From Candidatus Poseidoniales archaeon (GTDB lineage: Archaea; Thermoplasmatota; Poseidoniia; Poseidoniales; Poseidoniaceae), in NCBI GenBank assembly GCA_003602535.1, contig QQSA01000078.1:4405-68404 (forward strand): a stretch of DNA of 64,000 bases, written 5' to 3'. Positions 713-36,604 of the stretch are shown in pieces; the first letter of the stretch is position 1, and the number at the start of each line of letters is the position of its first letter. The notes beneath the pieces were generated by a model. That model was not told the origin of the DNA. It did no database searches and worked only from the letters and a program-made list of their open reading frames with translations. The translations under genes were made by a program, and so were the position numbers.

Positions 713-979
713 TCAAAGGTGCTCGATTCCTTGCTTCTTTACGTTAGCCTTCTTGATCTTGTCAGGAAGCCACGCTGGGCCATTTGCAGGCTTGTCTACC
801 TGTGTAATGCTGCCAGTGAAAACGTGGACTCTCTTTGTTCCACGCTCGCGTAGGCGTATGTCGGTGTGACCGCGAGTTGCTGCTTTTAGGGCTGCTCCTC
901 TAGGTTGTTTGCTTGCAAATACTTGGCTGGTGTCTTTTCCGCCCTTCATCAGGACGAAGTACTTCTTTCCATCGCTCAT
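713..979 (-). CDS. Archaeal chromosomal protein MC1
   Basis: The 88-aa basic protein contains ...KQPRGAALKAATRG...IRLRERGTKRVHVFTG...PAWLPDKI..KANVKK..IE.L, collinear with Methanosarcina MC1 (KQPRQAALKAANRG, IRLRERGTKKVHVF, RPAWMP). Confidence 0.8.
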   Translation of the reverse strand: MSDGKKYFVLMKGGKDTSQVFASKQPRGAALKAATRGHTDIRLRERGTKRVHVFTGSITQVDKPANGPAWLPDKIKKANVKKQGIEHL

Positions 980-1117
980 AGGTTATACCTCGGCACCCCT
1001 ACGAACTCCTAAAGGTTATAATATTTCCCCCAACAAACCGCTATACTGCGCCTCATATTGCACGCAGTAGGCCTTTTCGAAAGCCACTTTAGAGCAGTAT
1101 TGCTTTTGGCTATAGAT

Positions 1118-1357
1118 TTAAAATTCGGCTCCGGCAAGAGTCTTAGAATCGGTAACTCCAGGTACTTGTCGAATTATATCAACTACAGTTTGTGCAATGA
1201 TTCCTAAGGTGTCAGCTTCTAACTTTACAATAATATCATAATCGCCGAACAGAAGAGTTGAATCTACAACATTCTCGATCTCCTTAATCATTTGAAAGAC
1301 CTCGTACTCCTTGCCAGGAGAGACGTTTACCAGAACATATCCTACCGCCATGTACAA
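1118..1357 (-). CDS. Stand-alone Lrp/AsnC C-terminal (RAM/ACT-like) domain protein
   Basis: A 79-aa protein with the typical RAM-domain pattern (VNV.PGKEYEVF..IKEIENVVDSTLLFGDYDIIVKLEADTLGIIAQ). Confidence 0.65.
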   Translation of the reverse strand: MYMAVGYVLVNVSPGKEYEVFQMIKEIENVVDSTLLFGDYDIIVKLEADTLGIIAQTVVDIIRQVPGVTDSKTLAGAEF

Positions 1358-1382
1358 GCCAAGAATTCAAACTTGATGAAAC

Positions 1383-4300
1383 CTATGTTAATCTTAGATC
1401 ATCAAGGCTTTCTCGATATTGTTGCCATTGCTCTTCTTCCCAATCATCCGGCATAGGACCATCTAACCAGTTCAAAAATTCTTCAAGTGACCACCCTTCT
1501 GGGATTCTATCATCACTTTGAGGTGATGATTCTTCGACATTCCAGGTTTCAACTTCTTCGTTATCTTCTTTCGATCTAAATTTCAAACTGAATACGATTA
1601 TTGTGCCAAGTAGCAATAATATCCCTGAAATCGCCAACGGAGTAGATATTGACTGACTACTTTCATCAGCCTTTTCATCGACATCATCACAACCCTCTTC
1701 ACATTCAATTGGAGGATCAATGTAAAACGATGAAGAATAATTTACAGTATTGTCACTCCAATCAATGCAAGAGATATTGAAAGTCATGTTTCCTGACAAG
1801 CTATTCGGTAAAATCCATGATGATGTCCAGAAACCGGACTCATCTAGATCTGTAACCGCGCTATTTTCTCGAGAGTATACCTGAATACCATTTTGGAAAT
1901 AGTTGATCCCACAGGTCGCGTCAATTCCATCGGCATCTTCCATTTCAACAAGCACTTCAAATGCAGAGCCATGTGAGATATTCAAATCGTGGATTACTTC
2001 TATTGTTGGTGGAGAGTGCATGAATTCAAATTGAAGATAAGAATTCGATGCTATTTCATCAATATCAACTATCCTTACACCCAAACTTCCTTCTCCGGGA
2101 ACAAATGATGAATCCAATCGGATTCTAAAATGATAGATTCCGTTTTGTTCGGGAACATCAGTACCGCAATTGGCTGGGACCTGAGATGGTGCAGAAACAA
2201 TCCAACCGAATTGCTCAAGATTCGCTGTAACCGAAGCTACTGGGCGAGATGAATGAATTCGAACAACAGCATCGGCAGATTGGCCGAACATCAATTGATC
2301 AACCTTGGTTTCATTTTGGCAGAGGTCTATCGACAATATTGTTGGCGGGCTCAATAGAATAGTTGTTTCGAGAGATGATGTGCTACTCGCCCCATTTGCC
2401 CCTGTTACGGAGATATTAATTTGCAGACTACCGCTTTCGATTATATCAGTTGTAGATAATTGAATCATCGACAAACCATTATCAAAAACAACAGGGATTG
2501 TGTAAGGGCTTTGACCTGGCCATTTGATTGTGACATCGCCATAGACATTGCTTACTGTATCATCAGCATCGGTCACTATAATTCTGAGTTGCTCGTCTCC
2601 ACTCGCAACAACATTCTCAACCTGATTTCCAGATTGATCGACTATTGACATATCGATTACAGGGGCTTGGTCTCTTATTTTGATAGTCCTACTTGTCAAG
2701 AAATCTCCACTATTACTTCTTAATTCAAGACTGAATGAATCTAGACTTGTTTGCGTTGGAATCGTCAACGAGGCTATGTAGCAGTGATGCTCTGAACTGC
2801 TACCTTGACGATGTGACATACCATCGATATTACCACGTTCCGATATGAAAATCGGCAAATCGATTGCCGGATTGTGATCGGGATCTAATACGCAAGCCTT
2901 CAGTGTTGTAACATATCCTCTTCTCAATCCGATATACGGGTTTGAAGTAAGTACAGAGGCACCGCCCCATTCTGAGTCATCCACCCCCGAAACATGGATT
3001 CCAAACCAGAATGCGGGTGCATTTCTAATTTGAGCAATTGCAAGTGAAGTGGAATTCGTCGTGAGATTTGATTGGTCGGTAGAGATTACCTGTAAATCAA
3101 GTACACCAAGAGGGATGTCCGCTGGTAAATCGATAGTTGTCCACCAAAGGAACCCGTCCTGACTACCAGTATTTTGCCAAACCCATTCTGTACTATTATT
3201 TCCGAAACTTACTCTCCAAGCAATTTGTACCGAATCAACTGAAACATCATCTGAAGCTTCAATACTACAAACGAACCTGTCCCCTCTGCTATACTGAGTA
3301 GAATCACAAAAGATGTCTTCTATTACGGGTGGTGTGTTTACCCACAAAGTTAGATCGAATATATTGTTGTCAATATTCCTTTCAGGATTTATTGGGGTTG
3401 TTGCTTGCCATCTGATTACAAGATTGTTCCATCCGTCTCTTGACGTGTTTAACTGTAATTTGATTATTTGGCGACTACCATTTAACTCGCCATTAGGAAT
3501 TGTTAGAGATTGATTTACAAGCATGATGCTGCCTAATTTGTCAATCACACTTAACTCTCCAACCGCATCACCTGGGCCGATATTTTGTAGTGCGATTTCG
3601 ATTTCAAAATCCTGATTTTGTGAAACATTTTCCACTACTCGAACATCTATGATTTCGATATCATGAACAATATCGGCGTAAGGACTCATCTTTGGGTCTC
3701 CAACAACAACACCCATCCAACTAATCATTGTATTAGCTGCAGCATATGACTCGGCTAGATTGAAACCGCTTGTGTAAGATGATAACAGCACACTTGGAGA
3801 GGATACTGCTGTTAGATATGGTTCATACACGTAACCTTTGATTCCACTCGCTCCATCCTCAAGAATATCTGCAACCAGAGATTGCCCGTATGAGGTTCCC
3901 CAATTGAAGGATCTAGCTCCTGTACTTACCGCGGTTTCTACTATCGAACCATTTACCCAATTCATATGTGGCCTGATTACCCTCAATACTGTTGAATCAA
4001 TGAATAACGATCCTTCTGTGGAGGTAGGTACTATGTCGAGAGATATTCTAATTTTGAATGATGTCGCATTAGCATCTGGTCTAAATCTCATACTTTTGGA
4101 GCTCCAATCTACGTTGAATGCCTGATTAGATGATTCGTTGTTATTCAATTCGTTTCCATTAGAATCATACGATGTAACTTGAATATTGTATTCTCCAAAT
4201 ACATCTCCAGTTCTCTTACCATGAGTGTATACAACCCAAGCATGGTTAGTAAAATTAGTAGGTATACTGTGAGTTGTTTCTAAGTAAGCAACTCCCTGAC

Positions 4301-6509
4301 CGTTACCCGAATACGATGAACAATTGTTGACAATATCTCGGTTTAGGCTTGTAATTGAACCATTGGTCAATGCTGTGTCCCAGATCATTAGATTGTCAAT
4401 CATGCCCTCGAAATGTGAATTCCCTGCCCGGTTTACACCTAATTTGTATAAATCAAAATTATTTATCGAACCATTAGGGAAATAATTGGTATTAACCAAA
4501 ACTCCATCCATGTATTGCCTTGTATATCCGGATTCGTAAACAGTTACTAGATGTGTCCATTTTTGGGGATTAACATCTCCAAATGCTAGAGACTGATTGT
4601 TGTGTAATTTCCATTTACCTCCAGAGATCATATGCTGAAATGATTGATTCGAACCTGCTGCATCATCGATTGCGAAGGTAGAGGCATAGGTAGATTGATT
4701 GGAAATATTAGCCCAAACCCATTGACTGACTGAAAAATTACCCAACCAATCATCGACATTGACCTTAGCATAGTCATCAACACCATCGTACCATAGGCAA
4801 TCTCCATCTATGCAAGTTTTCCAGTTGGTTGAATTCATACCGTAAAGAGTAAAATTAGAACCATTAGATAAACTATCATTAGTTTGATTTCCAGAACCTT
4901 CATCAAAATTCCAATGATGAATCAGATTGTCATTTTGAGGTATGTAATCTCCTGCAACGTAAAATGCAGAAGAAGGGATTGTCGCTTTGCTAACATTATC
5001 ACTCTGCCATGATAATTTTAGTCCATGAGGGCCTCCTCCTTGGAAAAATTCAACTCTAAAATCATGATAGCCTTCGGTTAAGTTTAGGATTACTGAATGT
5101 TCTCTCATTCCATGCATTCCATAATTTTGGATTGCACTTTGTCCATCGATCCATAACTCACTGCCATCATCCGAGTTAAGATAAAATGTCCAATTTCCAG
5201 ATTCTGGAATATCGATTAAACCACTGAACCTAGCCCCCCAGTTATGTTTGAAACGGTTATCCAAACCAGGGTACGGGCTTCCGGACGAAGAATAAGCAAG
5301 ACTACTTTCTAAACGAATATGATCTGGAACTCTATCAATTAAATCAGGCATTGAGGCCGAATTAAAACTGATTCCTTCATTGTCAAAATATTCGGCGAAT
5401 ATTCCCTGCAACATTTCGCCTGATTCTTGGTTACAATCTGTAGATATTTGTGCTTCTAATGCTCCATTTCCACCTTGCTTGGTTTGTGTTTGATATGTCC
5501 AGTTAAATTCGTCTCCAGAGGAAACAGAAGGAGATGTAGCATTCCAATATCTAGAACCGCTAGTCCAAGCCGTATCAGTAGTATCAAAGCCGCCATTAGA
5601 GAGGTAATTCTTATTCCAATTCCCGTCATTACTTCCCCATGATGCATATCCAATTACATTGGAGAGATTAGTGACAAATTCTGTTTCTTCATCAAAGTAT
5701 ACTGGGAGATTCATTGTTCCGTTCAAAGTACTGTTAGTCACATACAAATCATCATTCCAGAATTTGTATCCAGACTCATTTCTATTTGTTGCCAAATCAA
5801 GTACATGAGTTCCTCTCGAGCCGTAAGAATTGTTTGCTTTCTCAATCAATTCTAGAGCGGTGTCTACAGAATATCCTGTTAGCCTTGTAACCAAAAAGAA
5901 TCCATATTCATCCCTAGTGAATTCCTTCATCTCTTTTCCTGCTAATGGCCCATAACCATGATTGGTCCACCAGTTTGACCCGATGTCCGCATCATAACTT
6001 CCTCCGACTAATGCTATCTCTTGATCAAATGATGCTTTACTATCTCCGCCACTAACTCTCAGTGGGATCCCCTTAGTTGTGACAAGGTAATTGATATCGC
6101 TACCATTGTATTCAGACAACATAAGTCTGAACGGTTCGAGGAAGTATGTCTCAAACTGATTTCGATTGATTGTTTCGCCCGTTGGAGTTGAAGAATTATC
6201 GAATATGAATATTCGATCAGAACTGATGTTTCTTGCAGTTACAAACGCCCAACCAATAGTTCGGCTAGCTTCTGATTGATTGTTGATTAACACCACCACG
6301 TCGCTGTAGTCGACAGCGGTTGAGAGATTGAATCCGCCAGGTACAGCAACTGTGCGGAATGGTGACTCGTTCCAGACATCATTCGATGTACTGGAAGCAT
6401 CGTATCTTGGCTCTTCAATATTGATATTTGAAGATACATCTGTTGGGATATGGATGCCTCCTAAGACAAAAAGCGCGACGAGTAGAAGCGCTTTTCTCAT
6501 AGAGGACAT
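1383..6509 (-). CDS. Giant (1708 aa) N-glycosylation-rich surface protein. It has a signal peptide, PA14-like, LamG/ConA-like lectin and CARDB-like domains, then a C-terminal TM helix and an acidic cytoplasmic tail.
   Basis: N-terminal MSSMRKALLLVALFVLGG is a signal peptide. PA14-like segment: GLIDIPESGNWTFYLNSDDGSELWIDGQ...GYHDFRVEFFQGGGPHGLKLSWQ. LamG-like segment: WYDGVDDYAKV...HLVTVYESGYTRQYMDGVLV...FEGMIDNLMIWDTAL. CARDB-like segment: VSQNQDFEIEIALQNIGPGDAVGE. C-terminus is ISGILLLLGTIIVFSL followed by a D/E/W-rich tail. NxS/T sequons are dense throughout. Confidence 0.8.
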   Translation of the reverse strand: MSSMRKALLLVALFVLGGIHIPTDVSSNINIEEPRYDASSTSNDVWNESPFRTVAVPGGFNLSTAVDYSDVVVLINNQSEASRTIGWAFVTARNISSDRIFIFDNSSTPTGETINRNQFETYFLEPFRLMLSEYNGSDINYLVTTKGIPLRVSGGDSKASFDQEIALVGGSYDADIGSNWWTNHGYGPLAGKEMKEFTRDEYGFFLVTRLTGYSVDTALELIEKANNSYGSRGTHVLDLATNRNESGYKFWNDDLYVTNSTLNGTMNLPVYFDEETEFVTNLSNVIGYASWGSNDGNWNKNYLSNGGFDTTDTAWTSGSRYWNATSPSVSSGDEFNWTYQTQTKQGGNGALEAQISTDCNQESGEMLQGIFAEYFDNEGISFNSASMPDLIDRVPDHIRLESSLAYSSSGSPYPGLDNRFKHNWGARFSGLIDIPESGNWTFYLNSDDGSELWIDGQSAIQNYGMHGMREHSVILNLTEGYHDFRVEFFQGGGPHGLKLSWQSDNVSKATIPSSAFYVAGDYIPQNDNLIHHWNFDEGSGNQTNDSLSNGSNFTLYGMNSTNWKTCIDGDCLWYDGVDDYAKVNVDDWLGNFSVSQWVWANISNQSTYASTFAIDDAAGSNQSFQHMISGGKWKLHNNQSLAFGDVNPQKWTHLVTVYESGYTRQYMDGVLVNTNYFPNGSINNFDLYKLGVNRAGNSHFEGMIDNLMIWDTALTNGSITSLNRDIVNNCSSYSGNGQGVAYLETTHSIPTNFTNHAWVVYTHGKRTGDVFGEYNIQVTSYDSNGNELNNNESSNQAFNVDWSSKSMRFRPDANATSFKIRISLDIVPTSTEGSLFIDSTVLRVIRPHMNWVNGSIVETAVSTGARSFNWGTSYGQSLVADILEDGASGIKGYVYEPYLTAVSSPSVLLSSYTSGFNLAESYAAANTMISWMGVVVGDPKMSPYADIVHDIEIIDVRVVENVSQNQDFEIEIALQNIGPGDAVGELSVIDKLGSIMLVNQSLTIPNGELNGSRQIIKLQLNTSRDGWNNLVIRWQATTPINPERNIDNNIFDLTLWVNTPPVIEDIFCDSTQYSRGDRFVCSIEASDDVSVDSVQIAWRVSFGNNSTEWVWQNTGSQDGFLWWTTIDLPADIPLGVLDLQVISTDQSNLTTNSTSLAIAQIRNAPAFWFGIHVSGVDDSEWGGASVLTSNPYIGLRRGYVTTLKACVLDPDHNPAIDLPIFISERGNIDGMSHRQGSSSEHHCYIASLTIPTQTSLDSFSLELRSNSGDFLTSRTIKIRDQAPVIDMSIVDQSGNQVENVVASGDEQLRIIVTDADDTVSNVYGDVTIKWPGQSPYTIPVVFDNGLSMIQLSTTDIIESGSLQINISVTGANGASSTSSLETTILLSPPTILSIDLCQNETKVDQLMFGQSADAVVRIHSSRPVASVTANLEQFGWIVSAPSQVPANCGTDVPEQNGIYHFRIRLDSSFVPGEGSLGVRIVDIDEIASNSYLQFEFMHSPPTIEVIHDLNISHGSAFEVLVEMEDADGIDATCGINYFQNGIQVYSRENSAVTDLDESGFWTSSWILPNSLSGNMTFNISCIDWSDNTVNYSSSFYIDPPIECEEGCDDVDEKADESSQSISTPLAISGILLLLGTIIVFSLKFRSKEDNEEVETWNVEESSPQSDDRIPEGWSLEEFLNWLDGPMPDDWEEEQWQQYRESLDDLRLT

Positions 6510-30350: not shown

Positions 30351-33300
30351 TCAGTCTCTACGAAGTAGAGCAGCACCTAATAGGCCGATTGTCGCAATAA
30401 TTCCAGTAAATCCTGGAAGTGCTGGGTTCTCATCTGAATAAGAATCTGCTTCTTCGGAATATAGACGTGCTGTATTCCAATCTTCATCAACATCTAGAGT
30501 TGAATGATCAATCATTATGACATCTCCAGTTGTTAAACTATCACTGGAATCAGTATCCATGTACATGATTGATAATCCTGAAGTCATCATTTCATCTTCA
30601 GTCACTTGAATATCGGATAGTGTCATCGACCATATATCATCAGAGCAATCTAGGTCATTCAGATTCTCATCTTCATCTAAGTCGTCACAGTTTGCAAGAG
30701 TTAGGCTGTAATCATTCAATGATCCTCCGATTCCTCCATCCATTCCAACTACTACTAGGACTTGCATAGAGTCAGTGATGTCGCCACCATCTTCATCCAT
30801 ATCTTCCATAGCATCCATCATATTTTCGAATTCAGCGAAGTTCAGTCCACCGCTATCATCATCATCATACATGTCAACCATGTTTGAAAGATGGTTTTCT
30901 TCTTCACTGGACATAGTTTCGCCATCTTCATTGTTTTGATTTGCAGAATATATCCATTCTTCAGAGGTTACTTCTCCATCGTTATTTGCATCGATAATCA
31001 AGAAAATAAACTCGAGGTTTTCTTCCATATCATCATCCATTGCGTCAAACATATTCATGAATTCATCGAAATCCAATCCACCGTTTTCGTCATCATCATG
31101 CATAGCAAACATTGCTGCAAATGCATTGTAGTCTTCATCAGTCAATGGTTCGTCGTCTGAATTATTAGCCATCTCTGTCCATTCTAACAAGGTGACTTCG
31201 TCGTCATCATTAGTATCAATCATAGCAAACATGATTTCTGGAGAATCTTCCATGTTTCCACTTTCGATTTCCCACATCATATCTGCGAATTCAGTAATGT
31301 TCAATCCTCCACTCTCATCTTGGTCATACATGTCAAATAATACAGACATGCGGTCGATATCATCTTGGGTAATTTCTTCTCCATCATCAGATTCGTTAAA
31401 CATCTCAGTCCATTCGGTTAAGGTGACTTCACCATTTTCATCAGAATCCATCATATCAAACATCGTATCGATATCCATTGGCTCAGGTGAATCCATTAAG
31501 ATAAGATAACCACTCATTGTCGATGAATCGTATTCATAAAGAATCAAGATTTCGTATTCACCATCATCAATAAGGAATGCATGTCCATCAGCATCTACCA
31601 TATTTCCTAACCATTCAACACAAATTTCAGTAGCATTATTGAAATCTCCGTGGCAACTTTCGTAATCATCCATGAATATATCCCATACTCCGGTTGAATT
31701 GAAAATAATCTCTCCAGTTTCGCACATAGTTGCGTTGTCTTCATTTTCCCAGCATTCTTCGTAAAGTAAGTGCTCTGGCAAAGTCATAGTGGTTTCAGTG
31801 AATGTGTAATCCATATCAGTGACCATTTGTCCACACATTGAATCATCTAAGTTTGTACTGTCAAAGCTGGAATGGTTTCCATCGTTGAAATCAACTACAG
31901 CTAGACAATGGTAAACCATTTCATCATCATGACCATCGTGACGCATACATTCCCAACCCGGTTCAAGATCAGTACACTCATCCATTTCATAACCATCGCT
32001 TTCCATTATGTTACCATCAGAATCAACCCAATCATTCATCCAGCATTCGTAATAACTGTCCTCAGGATCGGTGCTTTCTGTACATCCATCATAGTAAATT
32101 GGTTCATCGTAATAGTGATCGTCGTGGTCGTCATGAGCTTCATCTTCACCATCAGGACAATCATCAGTTCCGTCATTCACTTGTGAAATCCAAACTTCAC
32201 TTCCATCCATACAATCGAACCAATTGATTTCATTTCCATCTGTGTCATATTGTTGCTCATCTGCTCCATCATCGCAATCAGCATCACCATCATTTACGTA
32301 GTGGAATGGAATTTCTGATCCATCTCCACAGATGAATGTTGGACCATCATCGTGGTCGTGGTCGGAGGAATGGTCGCATTTGTCTGGAGACCACATATTT
32401 TCAACCATACAATTGAGGTAAGAAAGCTCGTCGACATCCAAAAGACCATCGCTATCAATGTCGCTATTGTTAAACATATAATCGATGCTATCCGAGTCGT
32501 ATCCTTCTGCCAATCCGTCGTTAGTTAGATCCAAATATACACAATCATCTAATTCGTACCAGTCTAACATTAAGTCGCCATCAGAATCACATTCAGACAT
32601 TTCACGATTAAACGTCCAATATGGATCGTTGCCGTCGTCGTCATCGTCGCCTCCATCCATGCTGGTCCACATGTATCCTGCATCCCAACAATCATCTTCT
32701 TCATGGATATCTACAATTGTATGAGTTTCGATGTCGTAACATACCATTCCTTCATCGTCGTGGCTGTGATCATGGTCATCTCCAAACTCATTCATGTCCA
32801 TTAGCATGAAAGGAAGGGCATGTTGCTCAATACTTTCGTCAATAGAAATGTCACCTGAGTTAAGCAATTGGAATTTTACCCAGTTGTCTTCATTCTCAAC
32901 ATCCATAAGGTCGAATCCTGTTATTTCCATATCCGAGTTTGTGTACACATTCATAGCGCCAAATGGTGCGTCTTCGACATTTAGCATTCCACTAAATGTC
33001 ATTCCGCTATCTGTAACTTCAAATCCAGAAAATGTTGCTGATACAGGATCGAAAATACCAGTGTAGTCATCTGATTCTGGGTTTTCATCCTCTTCTTCAT
33101 CCATATCGTCGCCGTCATGGTCATCACCATGTTCATCGCCATGGCCATCGTCAGTAATCCAAATTCCACCAGAATCTTCACAATCTTCTTCGTTATCTAT
33201 TGAGTAATCATTAGTATGAGTATTCATGTCATGGCATACCATTTCGTCACCCATATCATCATCCATGTCTTCATCATCATTGCCCATGTTGTAAATAGAT

Positions 33301-33872
33301 TCGAATGTGCCTGAATGAGACATGCGTAGTTCCATCGATTGTTCATTGCCTTCATCATCAGTTCCTGTCATCGAATATTGAATTTGATTACCATAGTAGA
33401 TTACTTCTTCAGTACTGAAAGAGTCACCATATCTATCCTCAATACTAGATTTAAGACCGTCTGGAGAAACTAGCACAGTTTCCATGAAATACCAAACTTC
33501 TTCAGAAACTGAAGGACAACCGTTGTATGGCTGGCTTTCATCAACCAAATCAGGATTCCAATATTCCCACTCTTCACATTCATCAGTATTCGCATAAACC
33601 TCGGAAACTTCCATCGAGAATCCAATAGTAGTGTCAAGAGTTTCGATATCTGGGCCTTCATCCATGAAATTGATGAATTCTACAATTGCTTCTTCAAGTT
33701 CTTCTTCTGAAGAGCAGAGATCATCCTGAATATCTGTCGCTTCTTCGTTGTAATTAAGGGCGTCTTCATCCCCACATCCAACAATTTCTATTTTGTCTTC
33801 AGCATCTTCTGCATCTAAGCATCCAGCTAGAAGTAAAAGTGCAGTCAAGCATATGGCTATCGCTTTGTCCAT
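30351..33872 (-). CDS. Giant (1173 aa) hyper-acidic secreted calcium-binding protein with an N-terminal Cys-pair module, LDLa-like Ca-cage motifs, three tandem EF-hand-pair repeats and a C-terminal PGF-CTERM archaeosortase sorting signal
   Basis: Signal peptide MDKAIAICLTALLLLAGC. The sequence is D/E-rich throughout. LDLa-like: CGDGSEIPFHYVNDGDADCDDGADE and CMDGSEVWISQVNDGTDDCPDGEDE. Canonical EF loops include DSDENGEVTLTEW, DQDESGGLNITEF, DTNDDDEVTLLEW, DDDENGGLDFDEF, DANNDGEVTSEEW and DDDDSGGLNFAEF. C-terminus is PALPGFTGIIATIGLLGAALLRRD. Confidence 0.8.
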   Translation of the reverse strand: MDKAIAICLTALLLLAGCLDAEDAEDKIEIVGCGDEDALNYNEEATDIQDDLCSSEEELEEAIVEFINFMDEGPDIETLDTTIGFSMEVSEVYANTDECEEWEYWNPDLVDESQPYNGCPSVSEEVWYFMETVLVSPDGLKSSIEDRYGDSFSTEEVIYYGNQIQYSMTGTDDEGNEQSMELRMSHSGTFESIYNMGNDDEDMDDDMGDEMVCHDMNTHTNDYSIDNEEDCEDSGGIWITDDGHGDEHGDDHDGDDMDEEEDENPESDDYTGIFDPVSATFSGFEVTDSGMTFSGMLNVEDAPFGAMNVYTNSDMEITGFDLMDVENEDNWVKFQLLNSGDISIDESIEQHALPFMLMDMNEFGDDHDHSHDDEGMVCYDIETHTIVDIHEEDDCWDAGYMWTSMDGGDDDDDGNDPYWTFNREMSECDSDGDLMLDWYELDDCVYLDLTNDGLAEGYDSDSIDYMFNNSDIDSDGLLDVDELSYLNCMVENMWSPDKCDHSSDHDHDDGPTFICGDGSEIPFHYVNDGDADCDDGADEQQYDTDGNEINWFDCMDGSEVWISQVNDGTDDCPDGEDEAHDDHDDHYYDEPIYYDGCTESTDPEDSYYECWMNDWVDSDGNIMESDGYEMDECTDLEPGWECMRHDGHDDEMVYHCLAVVDFNDGNHSSFDSTNLDDSMCGQMVTDMDYTFTETTMTLPEHLLYEECWENEDNATMCETGEIIFNSTGVWDIFMDDYESCHGDFNNATEICVEWLGNMVDADGHAFLIDDGEYEILILYEYDSSTMSGYLILMDSPEPMDIDTMFDMMDSDENGEVTLTEWTEMFNESDDGEEITQDDIDRMSVLFDMYDQDESGGLNITEFADMMWEIESGNMEDSPEIMFAMIDTNDDDEVTLLEWTEMANNSDDEPLTDEDYNAFAAMFAMHDDDENGGLDFDEFMNMFDAMDDDMEENLEFIFLIIDANNDGEVTSEEWIYSANQNNEDGETMSSEEENHLSNMVDMYDDDDSGGLNFAEFENMMDAMEDMDEDGGDITDSMQVLVVVGMDGGIGGSLNDYSLTLANCDDLDEDENLNDLDCSDDIWSMTLSDIQVTEDEMMTSGLSIMYMDTDSSDSLTTGDVIMIDHSTLDVDEDWNTARLYSEEADSYSDENPALPGFTGIIATIGLLGAALLRRD
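30820..31470 (-). repeat. Three tandem ~65-aa EF-hand-pair repeat units within the acidic protein gene
   Basis: Repeated DxDx(D/N)GEVTxxEW ... DxDx(D/S)GGLxFxEF units are visible in the translation and as similar DNA blocks. Confidence 0.6.
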
Positions 33873-34080: not shown

Positions 34081-35100
34081 GTGACGCCAATGAGAACAGA
34101 GCCATACAAGGCAAATCGCAAGGCTGTACAGCAACGTCTGTACACAGAGGGGCCAGTGCTACCGCCGCGTCTTGTTCAAAGAGGACATCTGCCTTGGTTA
34201 AGTACGTATACAACTCAGTTGAAAACGGAAGGAAAGTCAGTAAATACTCAAAAATCCTACATGATTGGTTTGAGACATTTGATTGAAACGCCATTACCTG
34301 GCGAGGATATAATTTCTGAATTCGAAAGGGATTCAATGAACATTGAACAATTATTAGAAAGGGTCGAGCCTTTCAATGGAAGGTTGGACCTATGGGTTCA
34401 GTCGATGGTCGATAGGTCTCCTTCTACTGTGAAGGCTAGGCTTGCAGCAGCTAATCATTTGATGAATTGGCTTGGGCAAAAGTGGCCGGAGCATCTTATT
34501 CGTCCAAAGAGTGGTAAGAAATTACCAAGGACTCTAACAAGTAGAGAATTATCACTCGTCAAAGAAGCTGCAGCATGTAGTGAAGATCCTGTAGCCAATT
34601 TGATTGTAACTATGATTCTAGATACTGGATTGAGAGTGAGTGAATTGTGTGAATTGAATATTTCAGACATTGATTTAGAAGATAATTCTGCGATGGTCAT
34701 TGATGGAAAAGGAGGAAAAGATCGTCTAGTTCTATTTACTCAATCAACTGTTGAAAGTATACTAGCTTGGTTGCCTTTGAGAGAATCTAGGAATCCATCT
34801 GGAGATAATTTACTTGTCACTAAAACAGGTAATGTATTCCAATCTAGAACGGTCCAGAGATTGATGGATAAGCTAGCAGATTTGGCAGGAATCCCCCGTG
34901 GGAGGCTCACTCCGCATGTACTCAGGCATAATTTTGCCACAGGATTATTGGAACGTGGAGCAGATCTAGTCAGCATTCAAAGGTTATTGGGCCATGCTAG
35001 TATAGCAACAACGAGAGTTTATCTTGAAATCAGCGATCAGACACTTAGAGAAATTTACAAGAGAGCACAAACCGTTCAAATTGAAGAGTGCGATTCATGA
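34081..35100 (+). CDS. xerA: Tyrosine recombinase, XerA/XerC/XerD family
   Basis: C-terminal catalytic motifs: RLTPHVLRHNFATGLLERGADLVSIQRLLGHASIATTRVYLEI (R..HxxR...LLGH...T..Y). N-terminal core-binding-like segment: EGKSVNTQKSYMIGLRHL. Confidence 0.8.
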   Translation: MTPMRTEPYKANRKAVQQRLYTEGPVLPPRLVQRGHLPWLSTYTTQLKTEGKSVNTQKSYMIGLRHLIETPLPGEDIISEFERDSMNIEQLLERVEPFNGRLDLWVQSMVDRSPSTVKARLAAANHLMNWLGQKWPEHLIRPKSGKKLPRTLTSRELSLVKEAAACSEDPVANLIVTMILDTGLRVSELCELNISDIDLEDNSAMVIDGKGGKDRLVLFTQSTVESILAWLPLRESRNPSGDNLLVTKTGNVFQSRTVQRLMDKLADLAGIPRGRLTPHVLRHNFATGLLERGADLVSIQRLLGHASIATTRVYLEISDQTLREIYKRAQTVQIEECDS

Positions 35101-35277
35101 ACGTGTTTTCTTGCGCTTTTTGATTTTAGAAGGCCCTGTCCATTCTCGATTGCTGGCAACCAAGTATCCATCATGACCCTCTATCGGGCAATGTTTGCCG
35201 CTACGGCAACGAGAACAATTCGATTTAGCAGGAAGTTCGACCGTTTTGCGCAACTTTCCGTACTTGCGCCTTGGCAT
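35095..35277 (-). CDS. Small basic Cys/His (zinc-ribbon-like) protein with a KKRKK tail
   Basis: 60-aa sequence MPRRKYGKLRK...CSRCRSGKHCPIEGHDG...KIKKRKKTRS. No confident family match by eye. Confidence 0.35.
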   Translation of the reverse strand: MPRRKYGKLRKTVELPAKSNCSRCRSGKHCPIEGHDGYLVASNREWTGPSKIKKRKKTRS

Positions 35278-35325
35278 GAATTGTCTGCATCAATGAAGGT
35301 CTTACAACATAACGGTGAATTTTGA

Positions 35326-35808
35326 TTACTTCTTATTGAACCAAGGCATATCTTTGACAGAACCAGGAATCTTCAGTGTCTTACCTTTTCGGCCATCGTT
35401 TGATTTAGAAGATTTTACAGTTTTACTGCCGATTGAAGATTTTATGGCCTCTTTGGCTACTTTACGGCTTGCAGCCGTGGCTTTCGAAATAGCTGCTTTC
35501 TTGACTGCATCTTTTGCTTTAGAAACCGCTTTCTTTGCCTTTGACTTCTTGGCAGGTGCTTTCTTTGTAGCAGCTTTTTTGGCAGGTTTTTCTTTTGAAA
35601 CTACAGAAAGTAATTTTTTCGAAATCATGGCACTAAGACCTGCTTTAACTAATCCTTTTTCGCCAGCCTTAACTATTCCAGCAGGCGATTTAATTCCAGC
35701 GTCATTCAATTTTTTTGCAGTTGCTTTTCCAACTCCAGGAAGTGCCAATAGTTTAGCGAGTGGGTCCTTCTTCGGCTTAGCGGCCATATCTTCACCTGAA
35801 TCATCCAA
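35326..35808 (-). CDS. HhH-motif DNA-binding protein with a long Lys/Ala-rich histone-H1-like tail
   Basis: N-terminal LAKLLALPGVGKATAKKLNDAGIKS is a helix-hairpin-helix motif (LPGVG). The remaining ~120 aa are about 30% Lys and Ala-rich (KKAATKKAPAKKSKAKKAVSKAK...). The plus-strand ORF 35315..35854 is its antisense shadow. Confidence 0.6.
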   Translation of the reverse strand: MDDSGEDMAAKPKKDPLAKLLALPGVGKATAKKLNDAGIKSPAGIVKAGEKGLVKAGLSAMISKKLLSVVSKEKPAKKAATKKAPAKKSKAKKAVSKAKDAVKKAAISKATAASRKVAKEAIKSSIGSKTVKSSKSNDGRKGKTLKIPGSVKDMPWFNKK

Positions 35809-35881
35809 AGAGGCGGCCGGTCATAACCCTTGTCTCAATTGTGCGGATTATTGAAGGGCAAAGCCTGTTCTGACCAGAAAC

Positions 35882-36604
35882 ATGCAAGAAGGGTTGGACC
35901 CAATGGTTTCCATCCTTTATGCGCAAGTTCGTGACGCTGGTCCCACACACGGATATGATATGGAGGGTTATCTAAGGCCGAAAGCTCATCCAGCAAATAT
36001 CTCGACTGTATATCTTGGAGATATTGCTAAGACATTGCTAAAAGTAATTCAAGGACATTCAACGCCTACAATGGTTGAAAAGCCAGGTTTTGATGAGCAA
36101 AAATGGGCTTTCAAATGCCGTTCAGGCGACGTGGTTCTTAATGTCGAAAGTTATTCTTATTGGGGTTTTGGATTATTCACAAAATGCTATGCAAATACGA
36201 TCACATTGGAAGGCCCTCTAGAAGAGAGATCAAGAATTATTTTTGACTTAGTAGCATCATTACCTCATAAGCCATGGGAATTTTCCAGGAGAGGGAAATT
36301 CAATTCAAAAATTGGTAATTGTCAAGAAAACGACCAGCGATGGATAGAACATATCAAGAGAGCCAAGTCTGATTTGAATGAATTAATTGAAGTCACTCTT
36401 CTAGAAAAAGGAGATTCGGAAGATATTGAAATTGCTAGAAATGCGCTGGCTGATGACAATGCTCCAGCTGTTTTACGAGCATTGGCCCGAATCGAAGCCG
36501 ATTCGATAGATATCGAAGTTGACGAAGTTGCGCCAGATGGAATTACTCTGAAAATTGACGAAAACGAGATACCATTCGTTGATTTATCTGAAGAAGAGGA
36601 ATAA
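35882..36604 (+). CDS. Hypothetical protein with an acidic C-terminus
   Basis: ORF from the track with no recognisable motif. Confidence 0.4.
   Translation: MQEGLDPMVSILYAQVRDAGPTHGYDMEGYLRPKAHPANISTVYLGDIAKTLLKVIQGHSTPTMVEKPGFDEQKWAFKCRSGDVVLNVESYSYWGFGLFTKCYANTITLEGPLEERSRIIFDLVASLPHKPWEFSRRGKFNSKIGNCQENDQRWIEHIKRAKSDLNELIEVTLLEKGDSEDIEIARNALADDNAPAVLRALARIEADSIDIEVDEVAPDGITLKIDENEIPFVDLSEEEE

What the first reader, a model, noticed from the sequence alone, without database searches (positions are those of the whole stretch)
35095..35808. HhH DNA-binding protein with a histone-H1-like Lys/Ala tail, followed by a tiny basic zinc-ribbon protein, in a genome that also encodes MC1
Gene 35326-35808 encodes an HhH motif (LLALPGVGKATAKKLNDAGI) followed by ~120 aa that are about 30% Lys and rich in Ala/Ser. 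Such H1/Hc1-like tails are rare in archaea. The tiny 60-aa Cys/His basic protein immediately downstream (35095-35277) ends in KKRKKTRS. Together with MC1 (713-979), this points to an unusual chromatin-protein repertoire.
Basis: partly seen in the sequence, partly recalled or inferred. Interest (0 to 1): 0.5.

Follow-up and report, generated by a model that had tools for sequence, protein, structure and literature searches.

The report
Lysine-rich HhH protein plus zinc-knuckle partner
Marine Group II archaea, which have no histones, all carry a conserved pair of small, very basic genes: a DNA-binding (HhH)2 domain with a histone-H1-like lysine/alanine tail, followed by a 60-residue zinc-knuckle protein; these are plausible but untested extra chromatin proteins.

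Summary
Both ORFs are real genes under purifying selection in a Candidatus Poseidoniales (Marine Group II) genome. They form a strictly conserved tandem pair, seen in 81 of 86 fetched loci.

- The first gene most likely starts at ATG 35787, giving 153 aa, behind an AGGTGA Shine-Dalgarno site.
- Its N-terminus is a complete two-motif (HhH)2 domain of the RadA/Rad51 N-terminal type.
- The disordered K/A/S/T tail is repeat-like and varies in length. It resembles H1 or Hc2 only in composition.
- The 60-aa protein is not a zinc ribbon. It has one invariant C-x2-C-x5-C-x4-H site, no known family or fold, and is better conserved than its neighbour.
- MC1 lies at 713-979 on the minus strand. MC1 in MG-II and the loss of histones and Alba in this lineage are already published.

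My best reading is a lineage-specific pair of non-specific nucleic-acid-binding proteins, probably nucleoid-associated. No expression or binding data exist. The conserved C-terminal peptide hints at an adaptor role. I rate it a new variant of a known kind, of moderate interest.

The parts
35326..35787 (-). Gene for the 153-aa (HhH)2 plus Lys/Ala-tail protein. The start is ATG 35787.
   Evidence: ORF list and sequence. This Met is conserved in the family alignments (invariant in A1, >=90% in A3), and residues upstream are not conserved. There are 75 homologues. The codon-position entropy pattern indicates coding.
35792..35797 (-). Shine-Dalgarno-like AGGTGA, 4 nt upstream of ATG 35787.
   Evidence: Read from the sequence. 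GGTGA(A/G) is present at the same place in most orthologous loci.
35821..35836 (-). Conserved upstream box (window: GAGACAAGGGTTATGA; family: G[AG]GAA[GT]A[AG]TT[CG]A[AT]GA). It looks like a promoter for the HhH gene. This is inferred.
   Evidence: Comparison of the 60 nt upstream of the start in about 70 loci. No functional test was done.
35593..35760 (-). (HhH)2 domain, residues 10-65. Hairpin 1 is LPGVG and hairpin 2 is KAGLS.
   Evidence: AF2 helices at 11-14, 21-29, 35-48 and 53-65, with pLDDT 85-89. The family profile matches the P. furiosus RadA N-terminal domain at E 6e-10. Foldseek matches RadA/Rad51 NTD, the AF1548 C-terminal domain and Hel308 domain 5 at rmsd 1.3-1.7 A over 51-61 residues. 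Pfam HHH_5 hits 55 of 56 members.
35428..35589 (-). Disordered Lys/Ala/Ser/Thr repeat region, residues 67-120 (33% K, 30% A). Its length varies between relatives.
   Evidence: Composition figures. AF2 pLDDT is below 50. Tail length across the family is 65-124 aa with median K 28.5%. There is a weak 15-nt (APAKK-like) tandem periodicity at 35546-35587.
35329..35427 (-). Conserved C-terminal peptide, residues 121-153. The window has SKSNDGRKGKTLKIPGSVKDMPWFNKK. The family consensus is DGRKGxT[LI][KR][VI]P[RK]SVxDM[PA]WF[KN]K[KR].
   Evidence: R, G, P, W and F are invariant in the motif alignments. AF2 pLDDT is 64-77. A minority variant...KGxxLKxPSL[KA][DE][MI]LKR, appears in 9 of 86 loci. A profile of the motif alone found only fragments of the same family.
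35298..35321 (-). Conserved element in the intergenic spacer (window: CACCGTTATGTTGTAAGACCTTCA). It looks like a BRE/TATA box at a fixed distance upstream of the small gene's ATG. This is inferred.
   Evidence: Spacers from about 70 loci were compared. The alignment has no gaps between the TTG(T)AA box and the ATG, which lies 30 nt downstream. No consensus RNA fold was found. The core CGTTATGTTGTAAG is the only exact match in the window, at 35301-35314.
35095..35277 (-). Gene for the 60-aa basic Cys/His protein (MPRRKYG...KKRKKTRS). It is not annotated in the source record.
   Evidence: ORF list. There are 49 homologues, all from Poseidoniales-type sources and all named hypothetical. It lies immediately downstream of the HhH gene in 81 of 86 loci. 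Coding pattern shown. This exact sequence is absent from the 15-billion-protein collection.
35173..35217 (-). Putative zinc knuckle C21-x2-C24-x5-C30-x4-H35 (CSRCRSGKHCPIEGH).
   Evidence: C21, C24 and C30 are invariant. H35 is invariant in A2 and at least 90% conserved in A4. H29 is replaced by Y or F in many relatives, so it is not a ligand. Metal binding itself was not tested.
34081..35100 (+). XerA-type tyrosine recombinase, convergent with the small gene. The two stop codons overlap in the palindrome TCATGA at 35095-35100.
   Evidence: Pfam Phage_integrase E 3.4e-36. The best NCBIfam hit is recomb_XerA_Arch at E 1.2e-54, which is below that model's cut-off. The arrangement is conserved in related loci.
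35882..36604 (+). Conserved 240-aa protein of unknown function, transcribed divergently from the HhH gene. It is a syntenic neighbour only; a functional link is not shown.
   Evidence: No Pfam, NCBIfam or PDB match. It is present in the same position in all related loci inspected.
713..979 (-). MC1 chromosomal protein gene. This is context for the chromatin repertoire.
   Evidence: Pfam MC1 E 2.2e-27, 95.6 bits. In the L002-L004 lineage, MC1 lies directly beyond xerA.

Best explanation
The locus encodes a pair of small, strongly basic nucleic-acid-binding proteins specific to Poseidoniales. They most likely act on the chromosome as nucleoid-associated proteins.

**Protein 1 (153 aa)**
- It would dock on the DNA backbone without sequence preference through a RadA-N-terminal-type (HhH)2 domain. 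This follows from established knowledge of HhH domains.
- Its intrinsically disordered Lys/Ala/Ser/Thr repeat tail (net protein charge +35) would neutralise phosphates and promote DNA compaction or bridging. This is how the H1 C-terminal domain, chlamydial Hc1/Hc2 and the PAKKA tails of actinobacterial HU work (inference by analogy).
- Its conserved C-terminal peptide, a hydrophobic M-P-W-F or L-x-x-[LIM]-L cluster followed by lysines, would either wedge into DNA or recruit a partner (speculative).

**Protein 2 (60 aa)**
- It is an extended, basic protein with a single CCCH zinc knuckle.
- It appears to be made from its own promoter-like box as a leaderless mRNA.
- It probably binds nucleic acid alongside protein 1.

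**Context:** Marine Group II lost histones and Alba and has only a horizontally acquired MC1, so this pair would supply additional architectural capacity.

**Shown:** gene reality, domain fold, composition, order-wide conservation and strict gene pairing.

**Inferred:** DNA binding, zinc binding, the chromatin role, and any interaction between the two proteins.
For: - **(HhH)2 fold:** the family profile matches the RadA N-terminal domain at E 6e-10. AF2 pLDDT is 85-89. Foldseek rmsd is 1.3-1.7 A. HHH_5 hits 55 of 56 members.
- **Tail:** 31-33% K, pLDDT below 50, length 65-124 aa across the family. 12 of 56 members hit Pfam HC2, the H1-like nucleoprotein.
- **Distribution:** 146 relatives among GTDB species representatives. 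The top 80 are all Poseidoniales or mis-binned marine MAGs, and they include the reference MG-II genome CM001443.1.
- **Pairing:** the HhH gene is followed by the small gene on the same strand, 36-58 nt apart, in 81 of 86 loci. This includes the most divergent members.
- **Selection:** both genes show the codon-position pattern of purifying selection. The small protein has 76% mean pairwise identity and 23 invariant positions.
- **Literature:** Diaforarchaea lost histones and Alba, and most MG-II encode MC1 acquired by HGT (PMC7613761). [quoted passage not shown]
Against: - I have no expression, abundance or binding data. MC1b is reported among the top 5% of transcribed MGIIa genes, but this gene could not be found in the held supplementary tables.
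- HhH domains and Lys-rich tails also occur in ribosomal proteins, for example the haloarchaeal eL32 N-terminal extension at E 3e-3, a bL21 variant in NCBIfam, and K-rich bL21 LCRs. Similar tails also occur in polyphosphate- and PHA-granule proteins such as AlgP.
- A strongly conserved C-terminal short peptide and a conserved partner gene are atypical of plain NAPs. Hocher et al. note that NAPs are usually single-gene units.
- The promoter-like boxes are not canonical A/T-rich TATA boxes like the one upstream of MC1.
- Similarity to H1, Hc1 or Hc2 is compositional only. For the window protein, hist_H1_lk_Burk scores 10.5 bits against a cut-off of 80, and there is no HC2 or linker-histone hit.
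Confidence: 0.5

Rival explanations
1. Adaptor or tether. The (HhH)2 domain and Lys-rich tail hold DNA, or another polyanion, while the conserved C-terminal peptide docks onto a specific partner. Candidate partners are a clamp, segregation or division factor, the membrane via an amphipathic helix, MC1, or the zinc-knuckle protein. The protein would then position the chromosome rather than coat it. Bacterial K/A-tailed PhaF and AlgP link granules to the nucleoid in this way.
For: - The last 25 residues are the best-conserved part after the HhH hairpins, with R, G, P, W and F invariant.
- AF2 gives this segment intermediate confidence (64-77) after a fully disordered linker, which is typical of a binding peptide.
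- The alternative form PSL[KA][DE][MI]LKR[IV]KK, seen in 9 loci from several lineages, has an i, i+3, i+4, i+7 hydrophobic pattern followed by lysines, i.e. an amphipathic helix.
- The H1-like protein AlgP spaces polyphosphate granules (PMC9239181).
Against: - No partner has been identified.
- The motif does not fit the canonical PIP box Qxx[ILM]xx[FY][FY]; I judged this by reading the sequence.
- The motif occurs in no other protein context.
- The zinc protein's sequence does not co-vary with the WF versus PSL motif type.
Confidence: 0.22
2. Ribosome- or RNA-associated pair. The tiny, extended, highly conserved zinc protein would be a lineage-specific ribosomal or RNA-chaperone protein. The HhH/K-rich protein would be an RNA- or ribosome-binding factor.
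For: - The small protein resembles ribosomal proteins in style. It is 60 aa, has pI 10.6, is almost all coil in AF2 at pLDDT about 71, and is 76% identical across the order, which is higher than its neighbour.
- The same type of HhH domain forms the N-terminal extension of haloarchaeal eL32.
- K-rich LCRs are common in bL21.
- Neighbouring genes include Sec61beta and an RsmB/NOL1-type RNA methyltransferase.
Against: - The pair is not located in a ribosomal-protein operon.
- There is no sequence or fold match to any ribosomal protein family.
- The neighbours are on other strands or in other transcription units.
- HhH domains bind double-stranded DNA in nearly all characterised cases (established knowledge).
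Confidence: 0.13
3. Recombination or repair accessory. A free-standing copy of the RadA/Rad51 N-terminal DNA-binding domain would work with the adjacent XerA recombinase or with RadA, for example as an architectural cofactor at the dif site.
For: - The closest sequence and structure relatives are RadA/Rad51 N-terminal domains and Hel308 domain 5.
- The pair is always tail-to-tail with xerA, often with overlapping stop codons.
Against: - Convergent orientation means no co-transcription.
- The whole block from RsmB to XerA is syntenic across the order, so adjacency to xerA is not specific.
- Archaeal XerA is reported to act without accessory factors (my own knowledge, not checked here).
- A variable-length K/A tail points to bulk electrostatic binding rather than a defined recombination complex.
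Confidence: 0.08

Closest known systems
N-terminal (HhH)2 domain of archaeal RadA / eukaryotic Rad51 (e.g. PDB 1pzn, 2bke, 1t4g)
   Same: - It is the best sequence-profile match, at E 6e-10. The match includes the Lys-rich lead-in and both hairpins (LPGVG and AG[IL]S).
- The structures superpose at 1.3-1.6 A over 51-55 residues.
   Different: - There is no ATPase core. Here the domain stands alone.
- It is followed by a Lys/Ala tail and a conserved terminal peptide.
Linker histone H1 C-terminal domain and bacterial H1-like proteins (Chlamydia Hc1/Hc2, Pseudomonas AlgP, Burkholderia/Bordetella H1-like proteins)
   Same: - It has a disordered Lys/Ala-rich, repeat-like tail of variable length with a large positive charge.
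- 12 of 56 family members match Pfam HC2.
- Charge neutralisation and DNA condensation are the expected behaviour.
   Different: - There is no winged-helix globular domain, and no homology beyond composition.
- Proline is low (about 5%) and there are no S/TPKK motifs.
- The tail is internal, lying between a folded domain and a conserved peptide.
Actinobacterial HU (HupB/Hlp) with C-terminal PAKKA repeats
   Same: It follows the same design logic: a small folded non-specific DNA-binding domain plus a Lys/Ala low-complexity tail. One JGI record of this very protein cluster is auto-named 'DNA-binding protein HU-beta'.
   Different: The folded domain is (HhH)2, not the HU/IHF fold. There is no homology.
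MC1 (PF05854), the known Marine Group II chromatin protein
   Same: It is small, basic and encoded in the same genome. In one lineage it lies only one gene away. MC1 was reported among the top 5% of transcribed genes in an MGIIa MAG (PMC9723583).
   Different: The fold is unrelated. MC1 is a characterised DNA bender acquired by HGT (PMC7613761), whereas the HhH/zinc pair is uncharacterised and confined to Poseidoniales.
Zinc knuckles of nucleic-acid chaperones (retroviral NC CCHC, C-x2-C-x4-H-x4-C) and small archaeal zinc-finger micro-proteins
   Same: It has a single short metal site flanked by basic, unstructured arms with invariant aromatic residues (Y6, W46). The size is about 60 aa.
   Different: - The ligand order and spacing are C-x2-C-x5-C-x4-H.
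- There is no Pfam, NCBIfam, PDB or fold match.
- There is no second CxxC/CPxCG pair, so it is not a zinc ribbon.

Membership tests
Helix-hairpin-helix (HhH)2 domain (Pfam HHH_5, RadA-NTD type) | Sequence match to the family model above the curated threshold. | tested here: met
   The window protein scores HHH_5 E 3.6e-6, 27.8 bits against a cut-off of 27. 55 of 56 family members match, with best E 9.6e-11.
Helix-hairpin-helix (HhH)2 domain (Pfam HHH_5, RadA-NTD type) | Two HhH motifs packed into a five-helix-type bundle with Gly-containing hairpins. | tested here: met
   AF2 places four helices within residues 11-65 at pLDDT 85-89. The hairpins are LPGVG and KAGLS, with P17, G18, G20, A49 and G50 invariant. 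Foldseek matches RadA, Rad51, AF1548 and Hel308 at rmsd 1.3-1.7 A.
Helix-hairpin-helix (HhH)2 domain (Pfam HHH_5, RadA-NTD type) | Non-sequence-specific binding to the DNA backbone. | not testable with these tools
   Needs EMSA or a structure with DNA.
Linker histone H1/H5 | Winged-helix globular domain (Pfam Linker_histone). | tested here: not met
   Pfam returned no such hit for the window protein at E<=1 or for any of the 56 family members at E<=0.01. AF2 shows only the HhH bundle.
Linker histone H1/H5 | Lys/Ala/Pro-rich disordered C-terminal domain. | tested here: met
   Residues 67-120 are 33% K and 30% A with pLDDT below 50. Pro is only about 4-5% and there is no S/TPKK motif.
Chlamydial histone-like Hc2 (Pfam HC2) / Burkholderia H1-like (NCBIfam hist_H1_lk_Burk) | Match to the family model above threshold. 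| tested here: not met
   The window protein has no HC2 hit at E<=1, and hist_H1_lk_Burk scores 10.5 bits against a cut-off of 80. 12 of 56 relatives hit HC2, which I attribute to composition.
Zinc ribbon | Two CxxC (or CxxH) knuckles supplying four ligands from two beta-hairpins. | tested here: not met
   There is only one CxxC. The conserved ligands are C21, C24, C30 and H35. AF2 predicts no strands. Foldseek against the PDB gave 0 hits.
CCHC zinc knuckle (Pfam zf-CCHC) | C-x2-C-x4-H-x4-C spacing and a match to the model. | tested here: not met
   The spacing is C-x2-C-x5-C-x4-H. H29 is not conserved (H, Y or F). None of the 37 members hit zf-CCHC at E<=10.
MC1 (Pfam PF05854), for the gene at 713-979 | Match to the family model above threshold. 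| tested here: met
   E 2.2e-27, 95.6 bits against a cut-off of 23, covering model positions 2-95 of 96.
Archaeal nucleoid-associated protein, using the operational criteria of Hocher et al. 2022 (PMC7613761) | Small (<290 aa) and containing, or predicted to contain, a DNA-binding domain. | tested here: met
   153 aa with an (HhH)2 domain.
Archaeal nucleoid-associated protein, using the operational criteria of Hocher et al. 2022 (PMC7613761) | Abundance far above that of transcription factors. | not testable with these tools
   No quantitative proteome or transcriptome entry for this gene could be located.
Archaeal nucleoid-associated protein, using the operational criteria of Hocher et al. 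2022 (PMC7613761) | Encoded as a single-gene transcription unit. | tested here: inconclusive
   The gene is always followed 36-58 nt later by the small gene on the same strand. However, the spacer carries a conserved box at a fixed 30 nt from the small gene's ATG, which could be that gene's own promoter.

The most novel reading that the evidence does not exclude
The two genes make up a previously unrecognised chromatin module specific to Poseidoniales, which filled the gap left when this lineage lost histones and Alba. The (HhH)2-Lys/Ala protein would be a functional analogue of a linker histone in an archaeon. Its conserved WF/PSL end would dock onto a defined partner: the zinc-knuckle protein, MC1, or a segregation or membrane factor. 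Such docking would organise or anchor the nucleoid of one of the ocean's most abundant archaeal groups.
Probability: 0.15. Interest if true: 0.75.

Novelty: new variant of a known kind. Interest (0 to 1): 0.45.

Why it matters
Marine Group II archaea are among the most abundant planktonic archaea. They are uncultured, and according to published surveys they lack histones and Alba, with MC1 as their only recognised chromatin protein.

A universally conserved pair of very basic small proteins is therefore a concrete, clonable candidate for the missing part of their chromatin. One member combines a non-specific DNA-binding (HhH)2 domain with an H1-like tail. I found no report of this arrangement in archaea.

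The 60-residue CCCH protein is an orphan family with no Pfam, NCBIfam or structural relative. It is not even annotated in this genome. Both proteins are short enough for direct biochemical testing.

Tried and rejected
- **Antisense artefact:** rejected on homologues, indels in multiples of three, and codon-position entropy.
- **Mobile-element context because of a 'phage integrase' neighbour:** rejected. The neighbour is the chromosomal XerA type and the whole block is syntenic across the order.
- **Zinc ribbon, or a known ribosomal, RNAP or Elf1-like small zinc protein:** no support from Pfam, NCBIfam, PDB sequence or Foldseek searches. The recurrent sub-threshold RseC_MucC hit is only a shared Cys pattern.
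- **Homology of the tail to H1, Hc1 or Hc2:** the similarity is compositional only.
- **C-terminal peptide in other protein contexts:** a motif-only profile retrieved only fragments of the same family.
- **Conserved RNA hairpin in the spacer** (suggested by eye from several loci): RNAalifold found no consensus structure, so I dropped it in favour of a promoter-like box.
- **Co-variation between the C-terminal motif type and the zinc protein:** none seen.
- **Known RNA families in the region:** Rfam finds only two tRNAs elsewhere in the window.
- **Expression data from the Damashek et al. supplement:** the gene was not identifiable there.
- **ComEA-like DNA receptor:** rejected, because there is no signal peptide or membrane anchor in the sequence.
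- **Canonical PIP box:** rejected, because the spacing does not fit.
Full report
**Source and observation.**
The window comes from a Candidatus Poseidoniales (Marine Group II) archaeon. The 160-aa translation of 35326-35808 (-) is identical to NCBI RJU86198.1, 'MAG: hypothetical protein DWC02_05000 [Candidatus Poseidoniales archaeon]'.

- The HhH motif is detected by Pfam HHH_5 just above its curated threshold, at E 3.6e-6 and 27.8 bits against 27.
- The protein is 26.8% Lys, 17.6% Ala and 10.5% Ser, with pI 10.7 and net charge +35.
- The 60-aa protein has pI 10.6.
- MC1 is confirmed at 713-979 on the minus strand, at E 2.2e-27.

**Are they real genes?**
Yes. The HhH protein has 75 homologues and the small protein has 49. 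All come from marine metagenomes or Poseidoniales MAGs.

A scan of one genome per GTDB species found 146 loci encoding a relative. The best 80 are all Poseidoniales, apart from a few obviously mis-binned marine MAGs. They include the reference MG-II assembly CM001443.1.

Across about 78 distinct orthologous DNA sequences, variation concentrates at third codon positions. Entropy at positions 1, 2 and 3 is 0.83, 0.61 and 1.69 for the HhH domain, and 0.59, 0.37 and 1.45 for the small gene. The + strand ORF 35315-35854 is therefore the mirror artefact, not the other way round.

**Anatomy of protein 1.**
The start is most likely ATG 35787.
- This Met is conserved in the family alignments (invariant in A1, at least 90% conserved in A3).
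- What gene callers place upstream of it is not conserved.
- AGGTGA lies 4 nt upstream, and GGTGA(A/G) recurs there in most orthologous loci.

From that start the protein has three parts.

(i) Residues 10-65 form a complete (HhH)2 domain, not a single motif.
- AF2 predicts four helices at pLDDT 85-89.
- A family profile hits the N-terminal domain of P. furiosus RadA at E 6e-10. It hits other RadA/Rad51 N-terminal domains at 1e-5 to 1e-2, and the N-terminal extension of haloarchaeal eL32 at 3e-3.
- Foldseek superposes the model on the RadA/Rad51 NTD, the AF1548 C-terminal domain and Hel308 domain 5 at 1.3-1.7 A over 51-61 residues.

(ii) Residues 67-120 are a disordered Lys/Ala/Ser/Thr region.
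- pLDDT is below 50, with 33% K and 30% A.
- Its length varies among relatives. The whole tail spans 65-124 aa through gain and loss of AKKA- or KAKSTAKKAA-like units.
- A weak 15-nt periodicity is still visible in the window.

- The consensus is SKSxDGRKGxT[LI][KR][VI]P[RK]SVxDM[PA]WF[KN]K[KR], with R, G, P, W and F invariant. AF2 confidence rises here to 64-77.
- Nine of 86 loci, from several separate lineages including the most divergent family members, carry a related alternative...KGxxLKxPSL[KA][DE][MI]LKR[IV]KK. Its hydrophobic pattern fits an amphipathic helix.
- A profile of the motif alone found nothing outside this family.

**Relation to H1, Hc1 and Hc2.**
The resemblance is compositional.
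- No winged-helix linker-histone domain is present.
- The window protein does not hit Pfam HC2 at E<=1.
- The NCBIfam Burkholderia H1-like model scores 10.5 bits against a cut-off of 80.
- Twelve of 56 relatives with longer repeats do hit HC2, with best E 3.8e-7. That shows how H1-like the composition is, but it is not evidence of homology.
- Proline is scarce and there are no S/TPKK motifs.

**Anatomy of protein 2.**
The 60-aa protein is the better conserved of the two. Mean pairwise identity is 76%, against 61% for the HhH domain.
- 23 positions are invariant in the 37-sequence alignment: M1-P-R-R-K-Y-G7, L9, K11, P16, C21-S-R-C24-R, G27-K28, C30-P31, G37, W46, G48-P49. H35, K54 and R55 are conserved in at least 90% of those sequences and are invariant in the 25-sequence alignment.
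- H29 is freely replaced by Y or F. The metal site, if there is one, is therefore C21-x2-C24-x5-C30-x4-H35. That is a single CCCH knuckle, not a zinc ribbon.
- AF2 predicts an almost entirely extended chain at moderate confidence, with mean pLDDT 71.
- There is no Pfam, NCBIfam, PDB-sequence or Foldseek match. The only recurrent signal is a sub-threshold match of the Cys pattern to RseC_MucC.
- This exact sequence is absent from the 15-billion-protein collection, so the gene is not annotated in the source genome.

**Gene pairing and context.**
The small gene lies on the same strand immediately downstream of the HhH gene in 81 of 86 fetched loci. In at least two of the five exceptions (L014, L022) the contig ends within about 60 nt of the HhH match; the other three (L023, L031, L036) were not examined. 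The spacer is 36-58 nt, with a median of 48.

The spacer contains a conserved element, (C)CG[CT]TA..(A/T)TTG(T)AA[GA][AG]CC. The alignment is gap-free between this element and the ATG 30 nt downstream. Its centre lies about 26-27 nt from the ATG, which is what a BRE/TATA promoter for a leaderless mRNA would look like (inference).
- The core sequence is the only exact match in the window.
- Apparent hairpins seen by eye in some spacers are not supported as a consensus structure.

The HhH gene has its own conserved upstream box plus a Shine-Dalgarno site.

The surrounding order is conserved across the order: RsmB/NOL1-type methyltransferase, two unknown genes, Sec61beta, an unknown 240-aa protein (divergent), the HhH gene, the small gene, then a convergent XerA-type recombinase. 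Adjacency to xerA is therefore not specific evidence of function.

**Published background.**
- Hocher et al. 2022 report that Diaforarchaea lost histones and Alba at their root. They also report that most MG-II encode MC1, probably acquired by HGT (PMC7613761).
- Damashek et al. 2021 list MC1b among the top 5% of transcribed genes of an MGIIa MAG (PMC9723583).
- No held paper combines 'Marine Group II' with 'helix-hairpin-helix'.
- The papers I read on archaeal NAPs and on low-complexity regions do not describe this family.
- The 'MC1' part of the finding is thus known. The HhH/zinc pair appears to be undescribed.

**Most likely mechanism.**
I commit to a pair of non-specific nucleic-acid-binding, probably nucleoid-associated, proteins.
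- The (HhH)2 domain contacts the DNA backbone (established for this fold).
- The Lys/Ala tail neutralises charge and promotes compaction or bridging (by analogy with the H1 C-terminal domain, Hc1/Hc2 and HU PAKKA tails; see also PMC6821194).
- The conserved end either wedges hydrophobic residues into DNA or recruits a partner.
- The zinc-knuckle protein binds nucleic acid alongside.

I put about 0.75 on 'binds nucleic acid non-specifically' and about 0.5 on the chromosomal or NAP reading as a whole.

Rivals:
- A tether or adaptor whose essential feature is the C-terminal peptide (0.22).
- A ribosome- or RNA-associated pair (0.13).
- A recombination accessory (0.08).

None of these can be separated further without expression or biochemical data.

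**Verdict.**
- What is new is an order-wide, uncharacterised two-gene module in a histone-less archaeal lineage.
- I found no other report of an archaeal (HhH)2 domain carrying an H1-like tail.
- The partner is an orphan CCCH micro-protein.
- The design principle, a folded DNA-binding domain plus a Lys/Ala tail, is well known from bacteria and eukaryotes.
- I therefore rate it a new variant of a known kind, with moderate interest (0.45).

Noticed in passing
window 35298-35321 (-), and the equivalent spacers in L001-L089: A 20-24 nt non-coding element, (C)CG[CT]TA..ATTG(T)AA[GA]ACC, is conserved across the whole order between the two genes. It always lies 30 nt upstream of the small gene's ATG. 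It may be a promoter for a leaderless mRNA or a regulator binding site. Its core is the only exact match in the window.
   Followed up: partly
window 35095-35100: The small gene and xerA converge, and their stop codons overlap in the palindrome TCATGA. The same 6-nt overlap occurs in L001, L005 and L006, while the genes abut without overlap in L002. The 3' ends of the two transcripts must therefore overlap in antisense.
   Followed up: no
window 35095-35277 (-): The exact 60-aa sequence is absent from the 15-billion-protein collection. This highly conserved small gene is therefore unannotated in the source MAG, and it was also not called in L002-L005. It is an example of a conserved micro-protein that gene callers miss.
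   Followed up: partly
window 34081 leftwards, compared with L001, L005, L089 and L002-L004: xerA marks a synteny breakpoint. To the right, the block from the HhH gene to RsmB is conserved. On the other side, lineages differ: RimK plus a SAP-domain protein in L001, L005 and L089; MC1, AsnC and a PA14 giant protein in L002-L004; and a 1173-aa acidic EF-hand protein in the window. In the window, the MC1-AsnC-PA14 block (713-6509) is inverted and lies about 27 kb away.
   Followed up: no
window 30351-33872 (-): A 1173-aa extremely acidic (Asp/Glu-rich) protein. It has multiple EF-hand pairs, an LDL-receptor class A module and a PGF-CTERM-like end (PALPGFTGIIATIGLLGAALLRRD). It is probably a calcium-binding surface protein.
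   Followed up: partly
window 35882-36604 (+): A conserved 240-aa protein with an acidic C-terminus is transcribed divergently from the HhH gene in every related locus. It has no Pfam, NCBIfam or PDB match, and its function is unknown.
   Followed up: partly
P0142, P0170, P0163, P0185, P0189: The family profile also retrieves long proteins of 500-1200 aa with 5-8 tandem copies of the same HhH unit. These multi-(HhH)2 arrays are reminiscent of topoisomerase V tails. I did not examine them.
   Followed up: no
PMC9723583, supplementary file 4, SIMO Bin 19-2 genes 1026-1028: In this annotated MAG from the Damashek et al. supplement, only about 280 nt separate the 286-aa neighbour gene from xerA, and no HhH gene is called there. 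Either this lineage lacks the HhH gene or the region is mis-annotated. I could not check this without the sequence.
   Followed up: no
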